From NCBI GenBank assembly GCA_000092065.1, contig CP000590.1: a stretch of DNA of 64,000 nucleotides, one strand, 5' to 3'. This document shows positions 15,640 to 52,936 of the stretch, in pieces. The notes below the pieces were generated by a model. The model was given only the letters and a program-made list of their open reading frames with translations, had not been told where the DNA came from and searched no databases. This DNA is from Ostreococcus lucimarinus (taxonomy: Eukaryota). The position numbers and the translations under genes were made by a program. Position 1 is the first letter of the stretch; every line of letters starts with the position of its first letter.

Positions 15640-17376
15640 ATGCGACGATGGGCCGAGGACGACGCGCTGCGGCGGGTGAGCGGACGGTACTGCCCGTTCG
15701 AGCCGGCGCCGCGAAGCACGATCGCGGTGGCGTACAGCGCGGACGGGAAGACGCTGGCGAGCACGCACGGCGATCACACGGTGAAGCTGATCGAGTGCGC
15801 GACGGGGAGGATGGTGCGGACGCTGGAGGGACACGGAAGGACGCCGTGGGTGGTGCGGTTTCACCCGACGAATTCAGACGTGCTGGCGAGCGGATCGCTG
15901 GATAACACGGTGATCGTGTGGGATCGGGCGAGCGGGGTGATGACGGCGCGGTGGGACTTCGGGAAGAGCATCGCGAGCCTGGCGTTCTTTCCAGGGAGCG
16001 ATATTTTGTGCGTCACGTCGGGGCACAGGCTGTACGCGTGGAAGTATAAAAAGTACAAGTTTAGAGAGCAGGTGAACCCCGATGGGAGCGCGGTGAGCGC
16101 GCAGGACGCGATCAAGGTGCTGCTGCGAACGACGCGGTCGCTGCGCGCGGTGCACTTTCATCCCACGGGGGCGCCGATGATTCTCACGGCGGAGGTTCGC
16201 GACATGGACGCGGACGCGCTCGGTCCGGCGTACACTAAGGATGTGGAAGGGGGTTATGATCAAGAAGCTGGGGTGTATTGCGCGCGCGACGACGTCGTCG
16301 AAACGGCGCGGTCGAGATTAGAGACGGAGCTGGAGCTCGGAACGGCCACGAGCGGCCGCCGACGTAGCCTCAACGCCCAAGGAGACGCGATGTGGCGAGA
16401 CCGAGCGAACGCGCCGGCGAACGTCGAAAACGCGCCCGAGGCGACGCGGAAGTACGTGCACGAAATGTTAGGGTTAGGGAATCGTAGATACGCCACGTAT
16501 TCCATGACGCAGATGATGGGACGGATCACGAGCGCGCCCATGCGAGCCGCGCACGAGGAGCGAAACGACGAGGGCGCCGACGCTCGAGGCGCTCGGCGTT
16601 TGCAGCCAGAAGCGAGAGCGGGAGGGATGCCGCAACAGATGCCGCAACAGACGGCACCGATCGTCGCCGCGGCGAGCGCATCGACGATGGCGTCGCCAGA
16701 CTTGCCGTGTATCGTCAAGCTCAAGCTTTGGGAGTTTGAAACGCAATTGGACGAGGATGGCGAGATTGAACTCAAACCTCTCGAGGAGCTACCGTTCGTG
16801 TTACCACAAACAGTGCTATGTAGCGAGATGGGTGCGCACTTTTCACCGTGCGGACGGTACATCGCGACCTGCCAGGCGTGTAAACCGCCCGTACCGAGGC
16901 AAGATTTACGATTTATTTGCGAGCTGCGAGTGTACTCGCTCGATTCACAAAATTTCGGTCAAGTCCTGAGCGCGAGGGCCATCAAGGCGGCGCAGTGCTT
17001 GACGAGCATCCAGTTCAGTCCAACGAGCGCACACGTACTTTTGGCATACGGCCGTCGACACGCTGCGCTGGAAATTCTCATGCCGCATGGTGATTCGTTT
17101 TCCCAAGTGCACACCATCCTCGAGGTGTTTTGCACTGAGAACATGCGTCTCGTGCGGATCATTCCATCCGTCGAGGACGAAGTCAACGCCGCGTGTTTTC
17201 ACCCGATCCCAGGGCAGGGTATCGCGTATGGCACCAAAGAAGGCCGGCTTCGAGTTTTACTCCACGACAGCTCTCCGAAGAGAGCGGAGAAGAGATTATT
17301 GGCCGATGCCGCGGGCGACGATTCACCGCTCACCGTGTCCCGTCGCGATTCTCACGCCATGGACATCGACGAGTGA
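15640..17376 (+). CDS. WD40-repeat protein, AMBRA1/DCAF3-like
   Basis: In-frame ATG at 15640, downstream of the PEX13 start. WD segment ASTHGDHTVKLIECATGRMVRTLEGHGRTPWVVRFHPTNSDVLASGSLDNTVIVWD aligns closely to the AMBRA1 N-terminal WD40 region. The track ORF start at 14518 overlaps PEX13 antisense and is rejected. Confidence 0.65.
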   Translation: MRRWAEDDALRRVSGRYCPFEPAPRSTIAVAYSADGKTLASTHGDHTVKLIECATGRMVRTLEGHGRTPWVVRFHPTNSDVLASGSLDNTVIVWDRASGVMTARWDFGKSIASLAFFPGSDILCVTSGHRLYAWKYKKYKFREQVNPDGSAVSAQDAIKVLLRTTRSLRAVHFHPTGAPMILTAEVRDMDADALGPAYTKDVEGGYDQEAGVYCARDDVVETARSRLETELELGTATSGRRRSLNAQGDAMWRDRANAPANVENAPEATRKYVHEMLGLGNRRYATYSMTQMMGRITSAPMRAAHEERNDEGADARGARRLQPEARAGGMPQQMPQQTAPIVAAASASTMASPDLPCIVKLKLWEFETQLDEDGEIELKPLEELPFVLPQTVLCSEMGAHFSPCGRYIATCQACKPPVPRQDLRFICELRVYSLDSQNFGQVLSARAIKAAQCLTSIQFSPTSAHVLLAYGRRHAALEILMPHGDSFSQVHTILEVFCTENMRLVRIIPSVEDEVNAACFHPIPGQGIAYGTKEGRLRVLLHDSSPKRAEKRLLADAAGDDSPLTVSRRDSHAMDIDE

Positions 17377-17605
17377 GCGCGACGGGTACACCGAACCCAT
17401 CCCATAGTTGTATCACACACTGTATCACCCCACCTTGTATTCGAACACGTTTTGTCTAGTCTTCACTTTCATCGCGTTCCCCGAGGCGCTGCTGCCGACG
17501 TCGCGGCGTCGCGTCGTTCCGATATCTGGGCCCAACTCCCGCGAAATCCGCATACACGCGCGCGCGACCGCGTCGATGGTGCCAAAACCCTAAGCATAAA
17601 ATTCC

Positions 17606-34456: not shown

Positions 34457-35039
34457 GCTGAGCTCGCGATACGTTTTCAAATTCTACGCTCGCGACGAAA
34501 CGACGCGCGCCGTCAGTCCTCCGCGTTCGTTCCCGCGCGCGCGCGCGCGCGCCCCCCACGCGCCCCCTCCCACTTCCGGGTGTCTCCACGCGCCGCGTCC
34601 GCGTCTTATCCGCCCCCCGCGCGTCCCGCGCGTCCCGCGCGTCCCGCGCGCGCGTCCCGCGCGTCGCGCGCCCGTCCCATCGCTCGCGCGCGTCTCGCGC
34701 GTCACGCACCGTATCGCTCCCCTTCCGGCTGTACCGCGACATCGTCGCCGGCCGTCGCCCCCCGTCGTCGTCGCGCGCGCCCGGTCGTTGCCCGTCGTCG
34801 ATCCGCGCGCGCGTCGTCGACCCTCGCGTCGTCTCGCGCGGCCGTCGATCGATCGATCGATCGCGCGCGCGTGCCCGCGTTCGCGCGTTCGCGTCTCGCG
34901 CGTCGTCGACGCCGTCGCCGTCGTCGCGCACTGCGGCCGCGTCGTCGCTTCGCGCGCTGACGCGGCGCGGTGACTGCGCGCGGTCGATCTCGACCCGGGT
35001 GTTTCGCGCGCTTGAATACGTGAATACGCGCGCGATCGC

Positions 35040-35340
35040 GCCGTCGTCGCGCGCGCGGGCCTAGGCTAGGTTAATTCCCGCGAGGGGGGTCGAATTTAAT
35101 CGTCGAGGCTTTTTTTTATTTTTCGGCGCCGCGCGTCGACGTCGACGTCGTCGTCGCGCGATTCGAGGGGTTTGATGGTGATTACGTACGTGATATACGT
35201 AATCATGGGGTCGGTGTGTACCCCCCTCGTGATGGGGGGTACACGCGCCGGGGGCCGCGCGCGGGGCGTGTACCCCCGCGTGTACCCCCCTCTGTGGATC
35301 GTTTTTTCGAAAAAAGAAGTTTATTTCTCGCGACCCCTCG
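35040..35340. promoter_or_regulatory. AT-rich island with clustered perfect palindromes in the divergent promoter between the HMG/AT-hook gene and PAM16
   Basis: The only AT-rich patch in this region. Hairpins GATTACGTA-cgtgata-TACGTAATC (35180..35204) and GTGTACCCCCC-tcgtgat-GGGGGGTACAC (35215..35243). T-runs. GTGTACCCCC direct repeats. Imperfect TTAATTC...GAATTTAA palindrome at about 35070. Confidence 0.3.
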
Positions 35341-35544
35341 CGGCGCGGCGCGGCGGCGCGCGCGGGCCGACGCCTCCGCGCGGTCGGTCGCCGACGCGCG
35401 CGCGCTTGAATACGCGTCGCGGTTTTTTTTCACGAGCCGTCGACGCGCCGCGCGCGGCGCGATTGGCGTGCTCGCGAACGCGCGTCGATCGCGCGAGACG
35501 AACGCCGGACGTCGACGCGTCGAGCGAGCGCGTCGCGGACGGGC

Positions 35545-35991
35545 ATGGCGTCGCGCGCGCTCGCGAACCTGCTCGTCGCCGGCGGCGCCGCGCTCGCGCG
35601 CGCGGCGTCGCAGGCGTACCGCCAGGCGCTCGCGAACGCGCAGCGCACGGGCGTCGCGAGCGAGGCGGCGAACGCGGCGTCGGGCGCGCGGGGGGCGTTC
35701 GGGAGGAAGGCGATGACGGCGGAGGAGGCGCGACTCGTGCTGGGGGTCGAGGCCTCGGCGACGTACGCCGAGGTGCTCGCGCGGTACGAGCGGCTGTTCG
35801 CGAGCAACGAAAAGGGTGGGTCGTTTTACCTGCAGAGCAAGGTGTACAGGGCGCGGGAGAGCCTGGAGAGAGAGTACGACGAGGAGACGGTGCGAAGGGA
35901 GCGGGAGGCGGCGGCGGCGCGAAGGGACGGGACGCAGGGGGTCGTGGAGGACGGACGCGAGGCGGGGGGGGGGGGCGCGTCGTCGTCGTGA
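35545..35991 (+). CDS. PAM16: Mitochondrial import motor subunit PAM16/TIM16 (Magmas)
   Basis: ATG at 35545. J-like domain MTAEEARLVLGV...YERLFASNEKGGSFYLQSKVYRARE typical of PAM16. Confidence 0.85.
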   Translation: MASRALANLLVAGGAALARAASQAYRQALANAQRTGVASEAANAASGARGAFGRKAMTAEEARLVLGVEASATYAEVLARYERLFASNEKGGSFYLQSKVYRARESLEREYDEETVRREREAAAARRDGTQGVVEDGREAGGGGASSS

Positions 35992-47658: not shown

Positions 47659-47734
47659 GCAGGCCATCGAACAGACCGTCGTCGTCGTCGTCGTCCGGTC
47701 GCGCCGCGCGCGCGAGCGCGACCCCGGTCGCGCG

Positions 47735-47788
<54 letters not shown>

Positions 47789-47899
47789 GGTCGCGACGCG
47801 CGCGTCGTCGACGCGCGCGCGCGGCATCAGGCACGCGAGCGCGACGCACGCGAGCGCGACGCGCGTCTTCGCGCGCGCGCGCGCGCGCCGGCGACGCAT
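46361..47899 (-). CDS. Hypothetical signal-peptide protein with (AT)n, poly-Asp/Glu low-complexity core and conserved-looking C-terminal domain
   Basis: Internal ATG verified at 47899 followed by hydrophobic VALACVALACL. Microsatellite-encoded ATATAT.., DDDDD.., DEDEDE.. runs. Normal-composition C-terminal domain of about 230 aa. The Arg-rich upstream track extension is rejected. Confidence 0.4.
47306..47346. repeat. (GTCCTC)n microsatellite, about 7 units
   Basis: Direct reading. Encodes the (Glu-Asp)n run. (GTC)n runs at 47623..47696 encode poly-Asp. Confidence 0.9.
47735..47784. repeat. (GTCGCC)n hexanucleotide microsatellite, about 8 units
   Basis: Direct reading. Encodes the (Ala-Thr)n run of the minus-strand gene. 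Confidence 0.9.
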
Positions 47900-48134
47900 C
47901 GCGGCGCGGTGCGCGGCGCGCGAGGCCGCGGCTCGCCGCGTCGCGGCGTCGTCGCGTGTACCCCTTGACTGTACTGGGTCGTGAATCGATGATGTCCTCG
48001 AGGGGGAGGTACACGCGGTTCGTGACCCGGCGCGACGACGCGTGACGAAATATCTGACGAAATATCTTCGAGCGACGCCGCAGAGCGACGCGCGCGGGCG
48101 ACGGCGACGGCGACGGCGACGCGCGACGCGCGGC

Positions 48135-50837: not shown

Positions 50838-51109
50838 GACGCGCGGGACGGGAGCGGTGCGTGGAGTGCCGCGCCGGCGCTCGCGCGCGCGATCCATCTT
50901 GCGCGGGGGTGGTGGCGTGTGTCCGACCGACCGACCGAGCGCACTGGGCAAACAGTCACGCGCTGGGCAAACAGTCACGCGTCGGTCGGTCGGTCGGTCG
51001 GTCGCGACGCCCGCGCGGCGGCAGAGCGCGGCGCGCGCGACGCGCGCGCACGACGCGCGCGGCGACGACGACGACGACGACGACGACCGCCGCGTCGTCC
51101 GCGCGCGCG

Positions 51110-52936
51110 ATGGCGACGCCGCGAATCGGCGTCGGACGGCGCGCGTGGCGTCGATGCGTCGAGGGCGCGCGCGCGACGACGACGACGGCGACGGCGACGA
51201 CGGCGGCGCGCGCGACGGCGCGCGCGAGCGGCGCGCGCGCGGCGACGACGACGACGCGCGCGCGCGCGCGCGAGGATCGAGCGACGGCGATCGGGGCGTG
51301 GGAGGCGATTCGCGAACGCGCGCGCGCGGCGCCGGACGCGACGGCGACGGCGAACGCGGCGGGCGACGGCGACGCGACGTACGCGGAGGTGATGGCGCTC
51401 GCGGCGCGCGTGGCGGAGGAGTTGAAGGCGCTGGACGTGCGGAAGGGCGATCGCGTGGGACTGGCGGCGACGGCGGGGATGGAGTATTGCGCGGCGGCGT
51501 ACGCGACGTGGGCGCGCGGGGGGGTGTCGGTGCCGATCGCGAGCTCGCACTCGGAGGAAGACGCGGCGTACGTGATGCGGCATTCGGGGATGCGGGTCGT
51601 GCTGATACCGCCGTTGGCGGACGGGGAGGAGGATTCGGAGACGTATGAGAAGTATGCGAGGGTGGCGACGCGGTTCGATTTGACGACGCTGCGGCTGCGG
51701 CACGTGCGGAGGCTCGACGCGGAATGGAAGGACGCCGACGCCGACGGCGCGGAGTTGGACGACGTCGTGAGCTCGCCAGATGATGGTGCGCTCATCATAT
51801 ACACGAGCGGAACCACCGGTCGACCCAAAGGGGCGTTGCACACGCACAGGTCGCTGTACGCGCAGTGCGCGGGCTTGATTGACGCGTGGCGTTGGGACCC
51901 GAGCGATCGAATCATCCACGCGTTGCCTTTGCATCACATCCACGGCATCGTCAACGCGTGGTTGTGCGCGCACGTCGTTGGCGCTACCGTGGAGTTCCAC
52001 CGTACGTTCACCCCTCGCGGGGTTTGGGCGCGACTTCGCGACGCGGCGCAGCCGCCGGTGACGGTTTTCATGGGCGTGCCGACGATGTACGTCATGCTCA
52101 TGCGCGCTTTGCAAGGGAACATGGCGCCTGAAGCGCGCGCGGAATCCATCGCCGCGGCGTCGAGACTACGCTTGACCGTGAGTGGGTCAGCGGCGTGCCC
52201 GGTGCCGGTGCTGGAGGATTGGCGCCGACTCACGGGACGAAGCTTGCTCGAGCGATACGGAATGACGGAGATCGGCATGGCGTTGAGCAATCCGTACGAA
52301 GAGTCCAAACACAAGCCTGGATACGTCGGATTGCCATTACCCGGTGTTCAAGTGAAGCTCGCACCTTTGGTTGGCGCGGACGGTGACGAGGACACGTCGG
52401 ATGTCGATTCCGGTGAGTATCTTCAAGGTCCGGGTGAGCTCCTCGTCAAAGGTGACAATTTGTTCACAGAGTACTATGACAACGCAGAGGCGACGTCGGA
52501 GAGCTTTGACGAAAGTGGATACTTTAAAACGGGAGATGTCGCAGCGATGGCAAGCGATGGGTTTTGGCGCATTCTCGGGCGCGCATCTGTGGACGTGCTT
52601 AAGATAGGAGGCTTCAAGGTGAGCGCGCTCGAAATCGAGGCGCGCCTGCTCGAAAATCCATCCATCGCCGAAGTCGCCGTATTGGGCATCCCGGACGAAG
52701 CGTACGGACAACGAGCGGTTGCGCTCGTCGTTCTCGCGCTCGACATGGAAACGGGCGAGCCCGCAAATTTGACGGAGGGTGATGTAACGCTGTGGGTTCG
52801 CCAAAATTTGGCGTCAAAGATGCATTTGCGCGTCGTCAAGTTTGCCGACAAAATGCCTCGAAACGCCATGGGCAAGGTGAACAAAAAGGACTTGCAAAGA
52901 ACGCACTTTGCCGAGTACTTTGAGCAGCAGCAGTAG
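51110..52936 (+). CDS. ACSF3: Acyl-CoA synthetase family member 3 / malonyl-CoA synthetase (AAE13)-like, with presequence
   Basis: The track ORF starts on GTG. In-frame ATG at 51110. AMP-binding motif YTSGTTGRPKG. ACSF3-like LHHIHGIVN and GYFKTGD...GRASVDVLKIGGFKVSALEIE. Confidence 0.8.
   Translation: MATPRIGVGRRAWRRCVEGARATTTTATATTAARATARASGARAATTTTRARAREDRATAIGAWEAIRERARAAPDATATANAAGDGDATYAEVMALAARVAEELKALDVRKGDRVGLAATAGMEYCAAAYATWARGGVSVPIASSHSEEDAAYVMRHSGMRVVLIPPLADGEEDSETYEKYARVATRFDLTTLRLRHVRRLDAEWKDADADGAELDDVVSSPDDGALIIYTSGTTGRPKGALHTHRSLYAQCAGLIDAWRWDPSDRIIHALPLHHIHGIVNAWLCAHVVGATVEFHRTFTPRGVWARLRDAAQPPVTVFMGVPTMYVMLMRALQGNMAPEARAESIAAASRLRLTVSGSAACPVPVLEDWRRLTGRSLLERYGMTEIGMALSNPYEESKHKPGYVGLPLPGVQVKLAPLVGADGDEDTSDVDSGEYLQGPGELLVKGDNLFTEYYDNAEATSESFDESGYFKTGDVAAMASDGFWRILGRASVDVLKIGGFKVSALEIEARLLENPSIAEVAVLGIPDEAYGQRAVALVVLALDMETGEPANLTEGDVTLWVRQNLASKMHLRVVKFADKMPRNAMGKVNKKDLQRTHFAEYFEQQQ

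What the first reader, a model, noticed from the sequence alone, without database searches (positions are those of the whole stretch)
35040..35340. AT-rich island of perfect hairpin palindromes sharing a CGTGAT spacer in a divergent promoter
In otherwise uniformly GC-rich DNA, a 300-bp patch between the HMG/AT-hook gene and PAM16 contains two perfect inverted repeats with 7-nt loops. They are GATTACGTA-cgtgata-TACGTAATC and GTGTACCCCCC-tcgtgat-GGGGGGTACAC. The patch also has T8-T9 runs, triplicated GTGTACCCCC, and an imperfect TTAATTC...GAATTTAA palindrome. The shared CGTGAT loop or spacer suggests a common binding site or a structured element. Candidates are a bidirectional promoter element, an origin-like sequence or a decayed TIR. 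Nothing comparable occurs elsewhere in the window.
Basis: seen in the sequence. Interest (0 to 1): 0.5.

Follow-up and report, generated by a model that had tools for sequence, protein, structure and literature searches.

The report
Conserved promoter motif cluster in Ostreococcus
The two "hairpins" sit in the shared promoter of two back-to-back genes of the tiny marine alga Ostreococcus lucimarinus: one is made of two copies of a short, evolutionarily conserved DNA word (GTGTACCCC) that is most likely a docking site for a regulatory protein, while the other is a recent, strain-specific palindrome with no sign of conservation.

Summary
The window is Ostreococcus lucimarinus CCE9901. The patch is the centre of the ~800-bp divergent promoter between an HMG-box/AT-hook gene and PAM16.

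- **Hairpin 2** is two of four copies of GCGTGTACCCC(C). In three sister lineages whose promoters are only 50-72% identical, all four copies are invariant and keep their spacing. The loop is not conserved.
- **The same inverted pair recurs elsewhere:** at 47956-48014 in this window, and in the plastid uL3/beta-amylase and NOS promoters of related picoalgae.
- **Hairpin 1** is absent from the sister lineages. It arose through clustered substitutions, and only CCE9901 has the perfect form. The shared CGTGAT is therefore private to this strain.
- **Composition:** the patch is 60% GC, about the window mean. It is AT-rich only relative to its flanks.

Best reading: a cluster of binding sites for an unidentified factor, possibly the single SBP (GTAC-core) protein. 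The palindromes are also hotspots for template-switch mutation; one 59-nt repeat-bounded segment is exactly inverted in a related lineage. I found no support for a structured RNA, transposon relic or origin. Modest interest.

The parts
35216..35244 (.). Hairpin 2. It consists of copies 1 (+) and 2 (-) of the GTGTACCCC(C) motif around a 7-nt spacer, TCGTGAT.
   Evidence: - It is a perfect 11-bp inverted repeat.
- The arms are invariant in 6 sequences from 4 lineages, while the spacer varies in sequence and by 1 nt in length.
- 10 of 13 pairs never vary, and covariation is not significant.
35266..35277 (+). Copy 3 of the motif (GCGTGTACCCCC).
   Evidence: GCGTGTACCCC (35266-35276) is an invariant block in alignment A2. 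Its spacing to copy 1 (+52) is identical in L007/L008.
35278..35291 (+). Copy 4 of the motif (GCGTGTACCCCCCT).
   Evidence: It is a 14-nt invariant block. Its spacing of +64 is conserved in L007/L008.
35179..35205 (.). Hairpin 1 (TGATTACGTA-cgtgata-TACGTAATCA). It is a young, lineage-specific palindrome carrying two A-box-like TACGTA cores.
   Evidence: - It is perfect only in CCE9901.
- Conspecific contigs have 7-8-bp arms.
- Sister lineages have gattacgggcgtaGTGTACgcgcgcg, of the same length and with no palindrome.
- Substitutions cluster here, with P=0.013 and 2e-5.
35138..35150 (.). GACGTCGACGTCG, two overlapping C-box-like ACGT cores.
   Evidence: It is invariant in all 6 aligned sequences.
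34991..35034 (+). The longest conserved block of the promoter, CGACCCGGGTGTTTCGCGCGCT..TGAATACGCGCGCG. TGAATACG is tandemly duplicated in CCE9901 only.
   Evidence: It appears as invariant runs of 22 and 14 nt in A2. GCTTGAATACG also occurs next to the palindrome in the uL3c promoter of L212.
35398..35419 (+). Second copy of GCGCGCTTGAATACG, about 130 nt upstream of the PAM16 ATG. It is present only in the O. lucimarinus lineage.
   Evidence: Repeat family D2. It is absent from L007, L015 and L016.
35110..35123 (+). T8-A-T5 tract.
   Evidence: The sequence shows it directly. A T-rich tract is kept in the sister lineages, and its length is polymorphic among conspecifics.
35302..35315 (.). TTTTTTCGAAAAAA, a 14-bp perfect palindrome in the most AT-rich part of the patch.
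   Evidence: The sequence shows it directly. 35295-35330 is 30.6% GC. It is not conserved in the sister lineages.
35071..35099 (.). Imperfect palindrome TTAATTC...GAATTTAA.
   Evidence: It is present. It is not conserved in L016, L007 or L171.
47956..48014 (.). Second site of the same motif, GTGTACCCC-41 nt-GGAGGTACAC. It lies in the divergent intergenic region between two genes of unknown function.
   Evidence: - Seen.
- The arms and the 59-nt length are kept in sister contigs L243 and L244, while the inner sequence has diverged.
- The whole segment is exactly reverse-complemented in L240.

Best explanation
**What it is.** The patch is the core of the bidirectional promoter shared by the HMG-box/AT-hook gene (minus strand) and PAM16 (plus strand) of Ostreococcus lucimarinus.

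**The working part.** The functional element is a cluster of four copies of one cis-element, with consensus GCGTGTACCCC(C) around a GTAC core. 'Hairpin 2' is simply two of these copies facing each other.

**Proposed mechanism.** The copies act as double-stranded binding sites for a sequence-specific DNA-binding protein that regulates one or both genes. The same element serves a small set of other promoters, often as an inverted pair. This step is inferred. The factor is unknown. The single SBP-domain (GTAC-core) protein of this alga is the leading candidate, at roughly 25%.

**Other conserved footprints.** GACGTCGACGTCG and CCCGGGTGTTTCGCGCGCTTGAATACG are further conserved blocks in the same promoter.

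**Hairpin 1.** It is not part of the conserved machinery. It is a palindrome created recently in the O. lucimarinus lineage by a burst of clustered substitutions, and it was perfected only in strain CCE9901. Replication template switching is the most likely cause. The CGTGAT shared by the two loops is therefore incidental.

**Shown versus inferred.** Shown: the anatomy, the conservation pattern, the recurrence at other loci and the lineage-specific origin of hairpin 1. Inferred: protein binding, the identity of the factor, the regulatory effect and the template-switch mechanism.
For: **Organism and context**
- Six of ten window proteins looked up carry O. lucimarinus CCE9901 accessions (XP_0014xxxxx), on a 613,585-bp contig.
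- HMG_box and Pam16 domains flank the patch.

**Phylogenetic footprinting**
- Synteny is conserved in relatives whose PAM16 is 86-88%, 73% and 66% identical.
- In alignment A2 the sister promoters are only 50-72% identical to CCE9901.
- The four motif copies are nevertheless invariant runs of 10-14 nt.
- Their relative positions (0, +22 reverse, +52, +64) are identical in L007/L008.

**The word is conserved, not the hairpin**
- The two tandem direct copies are as conserved as the inverted pair.
- The loop sequence changes between lineages.
- A 73% relative keeps four GTGTACC(C) copies in a different arrangement, including the spacerless palindrome GTGTACCCATGGGTACAC. A 66% relative keeps two GGGGGTACA copies.
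- That pattern is binding-site turnover within a maintained cluster.

**Recurrence at independent promoters**
- Window 47956-48014 carries the same inverted pair, conserved in sister contigs L243 and L244.
- The plastid uL3 / beta-amylase divergent promoter carries it in two lineages: L212, L227, L191, L203 and L221, and L204.
- The NOS / lipid-droplet-hydrolase divergent promoter carries it twice.
- A fourth contig, L206, carries it too.
- All five exact TGTACCCC occurrences in the 64-kb window lie in two intergenic regions.

**Candidate factor**
- SBP factors across algae and plants need a GTAC core (PMC12638912 text; references in PMC7455551).
- O. lucimarinus is listed with one SBP gene (PMC7455551 Suppl. 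Table 8).

**Hairpin 1 is young**
- 10 of the 15 differences in the core between conspecific L002 and sister L015 fall within its 27 nt (P=2e-5).
- 4 of the 11 differences between CCE9901 and L002 fall there (P=0.013).
- CGCGCG changed to TAATCA, which makes the exact complement of the upstream TGATTA. The chance of that for five specified changes is about 0.004.
Against: - No binding, expression or TSS data are available, so protein binding is inferred from conservation alone.
- Spacers between inverted copies range from 0 to 41 nt across loci. That does not fit one rigid dimer and forces a model of independent or flexibly linked sites.
- The SBP idea fails the extended SBP consensus. The flanks here are TGTACC/GGTACA, not CGTAC. 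The 9-11 conserved positions are also more than an SBP domain usually specifies.
- The genes carrying the motif show no obvious common function. They are PAM16, HMG-box, plastid uL3, beta-amylase, NOS and two unknowns.
- A preference for the inverted arrangement, one compensatory-looking change at the innermost pair (C-G to A-T, with an unpaired intermediate in L171) and one repeat-bounded inversion leave room for a structural role.
- The genome-wide distribution could not be measured. Only this window and fetched loci were available, and the metagenome scan was designed to find inverted pairs, so it is biased towards them.
Confidence: 0.65

Rival explanations
1. Structural element. The inverted GTGTACCCC pair is selected because it extrudes as a DNA cruciform or hairpin, or folds as an RNA stem-loop in a long 5' UTR. 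The structure, not the word, would be the functional unit. It might act as a nucleosome-excluding or insulating element between divergent genes, or as a structure-specific protein target.
For: - Both hairpins fold better than shuffles, with z about -3.9.
- The inverted '+ then -' arrangement recurs at several loci with free-to-vary loops.
- The innermost pair changes C-G to A-T in L007 and L016, with L171 as a half-step.
- A segment bounded by the repeat is inverted in L240. This shows that the arms do interact physically at least occasionally.
Against: - 10 of 13 pairs never vary, so they say nothing either way. Covariation is not significant: 208 of 500 shuffles do as well.
- The two direct copies (35268 and 35280) are equally conserved but are not needed for the hairpin.
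- More distant relatives keep the word but not the hairpin. These include spacerless 18-bp palindromes that cannot form a normal loop, and same-orientation copies.
- There is no Rfam match.
- The alga has no Argonaute, so a miRNA-type hairpin is excluded (PMC7455551 Suppl. Table 8).
Confidence: 0.13
2. Invertible DNA switch. The GTGTACCCC inverted repeats are recombination sites, and the DNA between them flips to change promoter output, as in bacterial invertons.
For: The 59-nt segment bounded by the repeats at 47956-48014 is exactly reverse-complemented in contig L240. The match is 65 nt at 98.5% identity on the opposite strand, with co-linear flanks. The uL3c loop may also be flipped between two lineages, but the alignment scores are 20 against 17, so this is weak.
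Against: - Eleven other sequences of the O. lucimarinus type, including the window, all have one orientation.
- The flipped contig belongs to a lineage about 10% diverged. This looks like one fixed evolutionary event, not switching.
- No flip is seen at the PAM16 site in any of about 10 sequences.
- A 7-nt spacer carries nothing to switch.
- Loop inversions next to short inverted repeats are a known mutational by-product (PMC12928735, PMC5453318).
Confidence: 0.03
3. Relic of a mobile element. The palindromes would be decayed terminal inverted repeats, and the flanking GCGCGCTTGAATACG direct repeats would be a target-site duplication.
For: Direct repeats of about 15 nt lie at 35003-35020 and 35398-35415, bracketing the patch. 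The motif occurs at several loci.
Against: - The element sits at the orthologous position, with the same neighbours, in every relative examined.
- Sister lineages have only the first copy of the direct repeat, so it is not a target-site duplication of an ancestral insertion.
- Similarity between loci stops at the 9-13-nt word, and the flanks are unrelated.
- The viral-contig hits are unrelated phage hairpins or 9-nt coding repeats.
Confidence: 0.02
4. No function. Both palindromes would be neutral products of template-switch mutation in a fast-evolving intergenic region.
For: Hairpin 1 fits this reading. Template switching is documented to create perfect hairpins (PMC8794818, PMC5453318).
Against: - The four GTGTACCCC copies are invariant where the surrounding promoter is 50-72% identical.
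- The word is retained in relatives whose PAM16 is 66-73% identical.
- The word recurs, conserved, at other promoters.
Confidence: 0.05
5. Replication origin or another chromosome-maintenance site.
For: The only evidence is the presence of T-tracts and palindromes in a nucleosome-unfriendly patch.
Against: - Nothing specific points to an origin.
- The coarse GC-skew profile follows gene orientation and shows no clear switch.
- The same word occurs in several ordinary promoters.
Confidence: 0.02

Closest known systems
Homotypic clusters of transcription-factor binding sites in bidirectional promoters, detected by phylogenetic footprinting
   Same: - Short invariant words sit in an otherwise diverging intergenic region.
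- There are several copies in both orientations.
- Copies turn over between more distant species.
- The cluster lies midway between two divergent start codons.
- The word recurs in a subset of other promoters.
   Different: The factor is unknown. The word is long (9-11 nt or more). Inverted pairs are unusually frequent, with spacers from 0 to 41 nt.
SBP-domain factor sites: copper-response elements with a GTAC core (Chlamydomonas CRR1, plant SPL proteins)
   Same: The element has a central GTAC. Several GTAC-containing copies occur per promoter. The organism has one SBP gene according to PMC7455551 Suppl. Table 8.
   Different: - The flanks do not match the CGTAC / TNCGTACAA preference (from my own knowledge of Birkenbihl 2005).
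- The target genes are not known copper or hypoxia genes.
- No binding data exist.
Template-switch mutations and hairpin-associated small inversions (Loytynoja & Goldman, PMC5453318; PMC8794818; plastid small inversions, PMC12928735)
   Same: - Hairpin 1 arose through a tight cluster of substitutions that creates complementarity to adjacent sequence.
- The segment between the inverted repeats at 47956-48014 is replaced by its exact reverse complement in one lineage.
   Different: The events are seen here in the nuclear promoter DNA of a picoalga, and the arms involved are themselves conserved cis-elements. The mechanism is inferred from the pattern and was not observed.
Plant bZIP ACGT boxes (A-box TACGTA, C-box GACGTC)
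   Same: Hairpin 1 contains two TACGTA cores. The conserved GACGTCGACGTCG block contains two GACGTC cores.
   Different: The TACGTA cores are lineage-specific or strain-specific. The assignment rests on the ACGT core only.

Membership tests
Conserved cis-regulatory element (phylogenetic footprint) | It is more conserved than the surrounding non-coding DNA at the orthologous position in related species. | tested here: met
   The four copies are invariant runs of 10-14 nt, while the promoters are 50-72% identical overall.
Conserved cis-regulatory element (phylogenetic footprint) | The same word recurs in other promoters and is conserved there as well. | tested here: met
   Window 47956-48014 and sister contigs L243/L244. 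The uL3c promoter in two lineages. The NOS promoter.
Conserved cis-regulatory element (phylogenetic footprint) | A protein binds the element, and mutating it changes expression. | not testable with these tools
   This needs EMSA or DAP-seq and reporter assays.
SBP / CuRE (GTAC-core) binding site | A GTAC core is present and invariant. | tested here: met
   GTAC is invariant in every copy and lineage.
SBP / CuRE (GTAC-core) binding site | The flanks match the extended SBP preference (CGTAC / CCGTAC(A/G)). | tested here: not met
   Every copy reads TGTACC on one strand and GGTACA on the other. The consensus itself is recalled from the literature and was not re-derived here.
SBP / CuRE (GTAC-core) binding site | The genome encodes an SBP-domain protein. 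| not tested
   The literature lists one SBP gene in O. lucimarinus (PMC7455551 Suppl. Table 8). I did not verify this in sequence.
Structured RNA / functional hairpin | Base pairing is maintained by compensatory changes, that is, significant covariation. | tested here: inconclusive
   10 of 13 pairs never vary and one pair has a double change. 208 of 500 shuffles reach the observed score.
Structured RNA / functional hairpin | It matches a described RNA family. | tested here: not met
   No Rfam hit reaches the gathering score in the window. In 34900-35560 at E up to 10, all hits score far below their thresholds. No tRNA was found.
MITE / TIR transposon relic | Terminal inverted repeats plus a target-site duplication, with multiple copies that share internal sequence. 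| tested here: not met
   Similarity between loci is limited to the 9-13-nt word. The flanking direct repeat is absent from sister lineages. The position is orthologous in all relatives.
Invertible DNA switch (inverton) | Inverted repeats bound a segment that is found in both orientations. | tested here: met
   This is met at 47956-48014 only, where L240 is flipped relative to the window.
Invertible DNA switch (inverton) | Both orientations coexist within one population or clone. | tested here: not met
   Eleven sequences of the O. lucimarinus type, including the window, share one orientation. The flipped contig is about 10% diverged. These are assembled consensus contigs, so minor variants would be missed.
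Template-switch mutation product (hairpin 1) | A cluster of nearby substitutions, with the new sequence being the reverse complement of adjacent DNA. | tested here: met
   Clustering gives P=2e-5 and 0.013. CGCGCG changed to TAATCA, which complements TGATTA. The ancestral state is fixed by three outgroup lineages.

The most novel reading that the evidence does not exclude
The inverted GTGTACCCC pairs are a dispersed, conserved family of cruciform-forming or recombinogenic elements in Mamiellales promoters. Their arms pair in vivo, and the DNA between them can flip. At some promoters, such as 47956-48014, orientation would act as a heritable switch, or the extruded structure would itself be the regulatory signal. 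That would be a eukaryotic counterpart of bacterial invertons or REP-like elements.
Probability: 0.06. Interest if true: 0.75.

Novelty: new member of a known kind. Interest (0 to 1): 0.3.

Why it matters
Almost nothing is known about promoter grammar in Ostreococcus, the smallest free-living eukaryote and a model for marine picophytoplankton.

- **A handle on regulation.** The GTAC-core word is long and conserved, and it marks a small set of divergent promoters: PAM16/HMG-box, plastid uL3/beta-amylase, NOS and others. It gives a concrete way to define a regulon and find its factor, and it can be tested directly in transformable O. tauri.
- **Mutational processes.** The locus also shows how perfect palindromes arise and how loops flip through template-switch-type events in a compact nuclear genome.
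- **A caution.** A perfect hairpin in one reference strain is not evidence of function.

None of this overturns current ideas.

Tried and rejected
- **Rfam and tRNA scans:** Rfam on the whole window at gathering score found nothing. Rfam on 34900-35560 at E up to 10 gave only sub-threshold noise. No tRNA was found.
- **Viral-contig scans** for inverted and direct motif pairs returned unrelated phage hairpins, including one phage contig with at least 6 dispersed copies, and 9-nt-period coding repeats. They are not relevant to the alga.
- **Metagenome scan**: most of the 69 hits are unrelated bacterial or phage hairpins. Only the CGCG-rich, Ostreococcus-like contigs were used.
- **Literature:** searches for the motif or for Ostreococcus promoter motifs found no relevant description.
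- **TTGAATACG direct repeats as a target-site duplication:** rejected, because the second copy is lineage-specific.
- **Common function among motif-bearing genes:** organelle biogenesis was considered and not supported, since beta-amylase, NOS, the HMG-box gene and two unknowns do not fit.
- **uL3c loop inversion between L212 and L204:** the alignment scores are 20 against 17, which is too weak to claim.
- **G-quadruplex or i-motif from the G and C runs:** considered by eye only. The loops are longer than canonical, and I did not pursue it.
- **TSS position:** it could not be determined with these tools.
Full report
**Check of the observation**

- Hairpin 1 is TGATTACGTA-cgtgata-TACGTAATCA at 35179-35205.
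- Hairpin 2 is GTGTACCCCCC-tcgtgat-GGGGGGTACAC at 35216-35244.
- Two further GTGTACCCCC copies start at 35268 and 35280.
- TTAATTC/GAATTTAA lies at 35071-35099.

The GTGTACCCCC word is over-represented. With up to one mismatch it occurs 6 times against 1.15 expected, and none of 100 shuffles reached 6. GATTACGTA is not over-represented. Both hairpins fold better than shuffled controls as single-stranded DNA, with z about -3.9. Almost every other perfect hairpin in the window with arms of 9 bp or more is CG-rich, most of them plain CGCG repeats.

Three parts of the description do not hold.
- The patch is 60.1% GC against a window mean of 62.3%. It is AT-rich only relative to its non-coding flanks, which are 75-80% GC.
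- There is one T8 run and no T9.
- 'Nothing comparable occurs elsewhere' is wrong. An inverted GTGTACCCC / GGAGGTACAC pair lies at 47956-48014 in another divergent intergenic region.

**Organism and context**

Six of ten window proteins looked up match, residue for residue, proteins that carry Ostreococcus lucimarinus CCE9901 accessions, on a 613,585-bp contig. The patch lies between an HMG-box gene that carries an RGRP AT-hook (minus strand) and PAM16 (plus strand, ATG at 35545).

The HMG gene very probably starts further upstream than the simple ORF suggests.
- A mini-exon, ATG TCG CGG TAC AGC CGG AAG... (MSRYSRK), lies at 34742-34710.
- It is followed by GTGCGT, a CTGAC branch-like site and a TAG acceptor at 34484, and it is in frame with the ORF.
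- The peptide is conserved, with synonymous changes, in relatives whose PAM16 is 73% and 66% identical.

The two start codons are therefore about 800 bp apart, and the patch lies in the middle.

**Comparative evidence at the locus**

Contigs carrying the same or related PAM16 genes were fetched, and synteny is conserved in all of them.

*Conspecific contigs.* L002, L004, L006, L001 and L239 are about 91% identical across the promoter. Hairpin 2 and all four motif copies are identical in them. The centre of hairpin 1 reads GATTACG-CGTGTGCTA-TACGTAATC, or CGTGCGCTA in L006. The perfect palindrome and its CGTGAT loop are therefore private to CCE9901.

*Sister lineages.* L015, L016/L007 and L171 are 72%, about 55% and 50% identical in the aligned promoter core.
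- The only invariant runs of 8 nt or more, other than two plain CGCGCG stretches, are the four motif copies, GACGTCGACGTCG, and CGACCCGGGTGTTTCGCGCGCT..TGAATACGCGCGCG.
- In L007/L008 the four copies keep exactly the relative positions 0, +22 (reverse), +52 and +64.
- The hairpin 2 spacer is not conserved: TCGTGAT, TCGTG-T, aTCGCGTGt, TCGCGCGt.
- At the position of hairpin 1, all three sister lineages have gattacgggcgtaGTGTACgcgcgcg. It has the same length and forms no palindrome.

*More distant relatives.* They keep the word but rearrange it.
- L009 has four GTGTACC(C) copies, including GTGTACCCATGGGTACAC.
- L012 has two GGGGGTACA copies.
- L017 has none within the 546 nt available.

**Is the hairpin or the word conserved?**

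A formal pair count on hairpin 2 gives 10 of 13 pairs that never vary. One pair changes on both sides (C-G to A-T in L007 and L016), and L171 is an unpaired intermediate. Covariation is not significant: 208 of 500 shuffles do as well.

Three further observations point to the word as the conserved unit.
- The two direct copies, which the hairpin does not need, are as conserved as the inverted pair.
- The loops are free to vary.
- Spacerless palindromes and same-orientation copies occur in other species.

**Recurrence elsewhere**

One metagenome scan for GCGTGTACCCC-N(0-30)-GGGGTACAC returned 69 loci. Most are unrelated bacterial or phage hairpins. The CGCG-rich, Ostreococcus-like contigs show the same inverted pair at other promoters.
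- **Plastid uL3 / beta-amylase.** The pair lies about 190-230 bp upstream of a plastid-type ribosomal protein uL3 gene that is divergent from a beta-amylase gene. It occurs in two lineages with different loops: L212, L227, L191, L203 and L221 have TCGTGC, and L204 has TCTGCCT.
- **NOS / lipid-droplet hydrolase.** The pair occurs twice in this divergent promoter (L223 and L217).
- **L206.** This contig carries GTGTACCCCGGGGTACAC.

In the window, all five exact TGTACCCC occurrences lie in two intergenic regions. At the second window site, the arms and the 59-nt overall length are conserved in sister contigs L243 and L244, while the inner sequence has diverged.

No similarity beyond the word links these loci. 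This observation, together with orthologous conservation, rules out a transposon relic. The flanking GCGCGCTTGAATACG direct repeat is not a target-site duplication, because the second copy exists only in the O. lucimarinus lineage.

**Mutational behaviour of the palindromes**

Hairpin 1 arose through clustered change.
- Within the conserved core, 10 of the 15 differences between conspecific L002 and sister L015 fall in its 27 nt (P=2e-5).
- CGCGCG became TAATCA, the exact complement of the upstream TGATTA. The chance of that for five specified changes is about 0.004.
- 4 of the 11 differences between CCE9901 and its conspecifics fall in the same 27 nt (P=0.013). They lengthen the arms from 8 to 10 bp.

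This is the signature described for replication template switching, which is known to create perfect hairpins (PMC8794818, PMC5453318).

At the second window site, contig L240 belongs to a lineage about 90% identical to the window. It carries the whole repeat-bounded segment as an exact reverse complement: 65 nt at 98.5% identity on the opposite strand, with co-linear flanks. Eleven other sequences of the O. lucimarinus type, including the window, share one orientation. Small inversions next to short inverted repeats are a known mutational phenomenon (PMC12928735). I read this as one fixed event and not as a switch.

**Mechanism proposed**

The four GCGTGTACCCC(C) copies are binding sites for a sequence-specific factor in a bidirectional promoter. 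They sit with at least two other conserved footprints. The relatively AT-rich, T-tract-bearing centre is the likely nucleosome-poor core. Binding is inferred, not shown.

The invariant GTAC core suggests the SBP family, which needs GTAC across algae and plants (PMC12638912; references in PMC7455551). O. lucimarinus is listed with a single SBP gene and no Argonaute (PMC7455551 Suppl. Table 8). However, the flanks do not match the usual CGTAC preference, and the conserved word is longer than an SBP site. I therefore give this candidate only about 25%. A multi-zinc-finger or other factor is equally possible.

The variable spacing of inverted pairs (0-41 nt) argues against a single rigid dimer.

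**Comparison with known things and novelty**

The element works like an ordinary homotypic cluster of cis-elements. It is a member of that general kind by the footprinting criteria tested here. Membership of the SBP/CuRE class fails one tested feature, the flanks. Membership of the structured-RNA, transposon and inverton classes fails or is inconclusive.

I found no description of this word in the searchable literature, so it is probably an undescribed Ostreococcus promoter motif. That makes it a new member of a known kind.

**Verdict**

The argument from a shared CGTGAT loop is wrong. Hairpin 1 is a strain-specific mutational product. Interest is modest (0.3): a testable regulatory word for a model picoalga, plus a clean example of how palindromes arise. 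The most novel reading not excluded is that the inverted pairs act through cruciform formation or inversion. I put it at about 6%.

Noticed in passing
window 34710-34742 (minus strand) and intron 34484-34709: There is a probable unannotated first exon of the HMG-box/AT-hook gene. It reads ATG TCG CGG TAC AGC CGG AAG GGG AGC GAT ACG (MSRYSRKGSDT), followed by GTGCGT, a CTGAC branch-like site and a TAG acceptor. It is in frame with the ORF that starts at 34480. The peptide start MS(G)RYSRK is conserved, with synonymous changes, in L009 and L012. Metagenome gene callers start the gene at the internal ATG instead.
   Followed up: partly
window 48043-48067: There is a tandem pair TGACGAAATATCT x2. 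It contains two AAATATCT cores, which resemble the evening element (the CCA1/LHY-type clock motif, recalled from my own knowledge). It lies 30 nt from the second GTGTACC inverted pair. Sister contigs L243 and L244 keep one copy, and L240 keeps both.
   Followed up: partly
L240:375-433 versus window 47956-48014: In one metagenome lineage the 59-nt segment bounded by the GTGTACC/GGTACAC inverted repeats is exactly reverse-complemented, while its flanks stay co-linear. The overall identity of that lineage to the window is about 90%.
   Followed up: yes
L212:4816-4835, L206:610-675, L017:375-395; window 17366-17391 and 11748: A second recurrent word, (T)CATCACTCGTCGA, or its complement TCGACGAGTGATGA, lies next to GTGTACC motifs.
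- It occurs in the uL3c promoter (L212).
- It forms a 12-bp inverted repeat in L206.
- It lies upstream of PAM16 in L017, a relative that lacks the GTGTACCCC word there.
- The window has TCGACGAGTGA-8 nt-GGTACAC at 17366-17391.

It is possibly a partner cis-element.
   Followed up: no
L017:295-320: In one relative (L017, PAM16 about 73% identical), the PAM16 upstream region carries three tandem telomere-like repeats, CCCTAAACCCTAAACCCTA. These resemble the plant telo-box, a resemblance recalled from my own knowledge. The GTGTACCCC cluster is not there.
   Followed up: no
window 35012-35028: TGAATACG is tandemly duplicated (TTGAATACGTGAATACG) in CCE9901 only. All conspecific and sister contigs have a single copy inside the most conserved block of the promoter.
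   Followed up: partly
L018 and L019 (IMGVR_UViG_3300030106_005739): A phage-like contig carries at least six dispersed hairpins of the form ttaGTGTACCCC(T/C)..loop..GGGGTACACgtaa, spaced 300-700 nt apart. This is an unrelated viral repeat family that happens to share the arm sequence.
   Followed up: no
window, e.g. 34484-34709, 35340-35544, 47700-47950, 51000-51300: Non-coding DNA (introns, UTRs and intergenic regions) is far more GC-rich, at 75-83% with CGCG-type low complexity, than most coding sequence, which runs about 46-65%. The sixty-four 300-bp samples taken every 1 kb span 46-83% GC. The window is therefore not 'uniformly GC-rich', and GC peaks mark non-coding DNA.
   Followed up: partly
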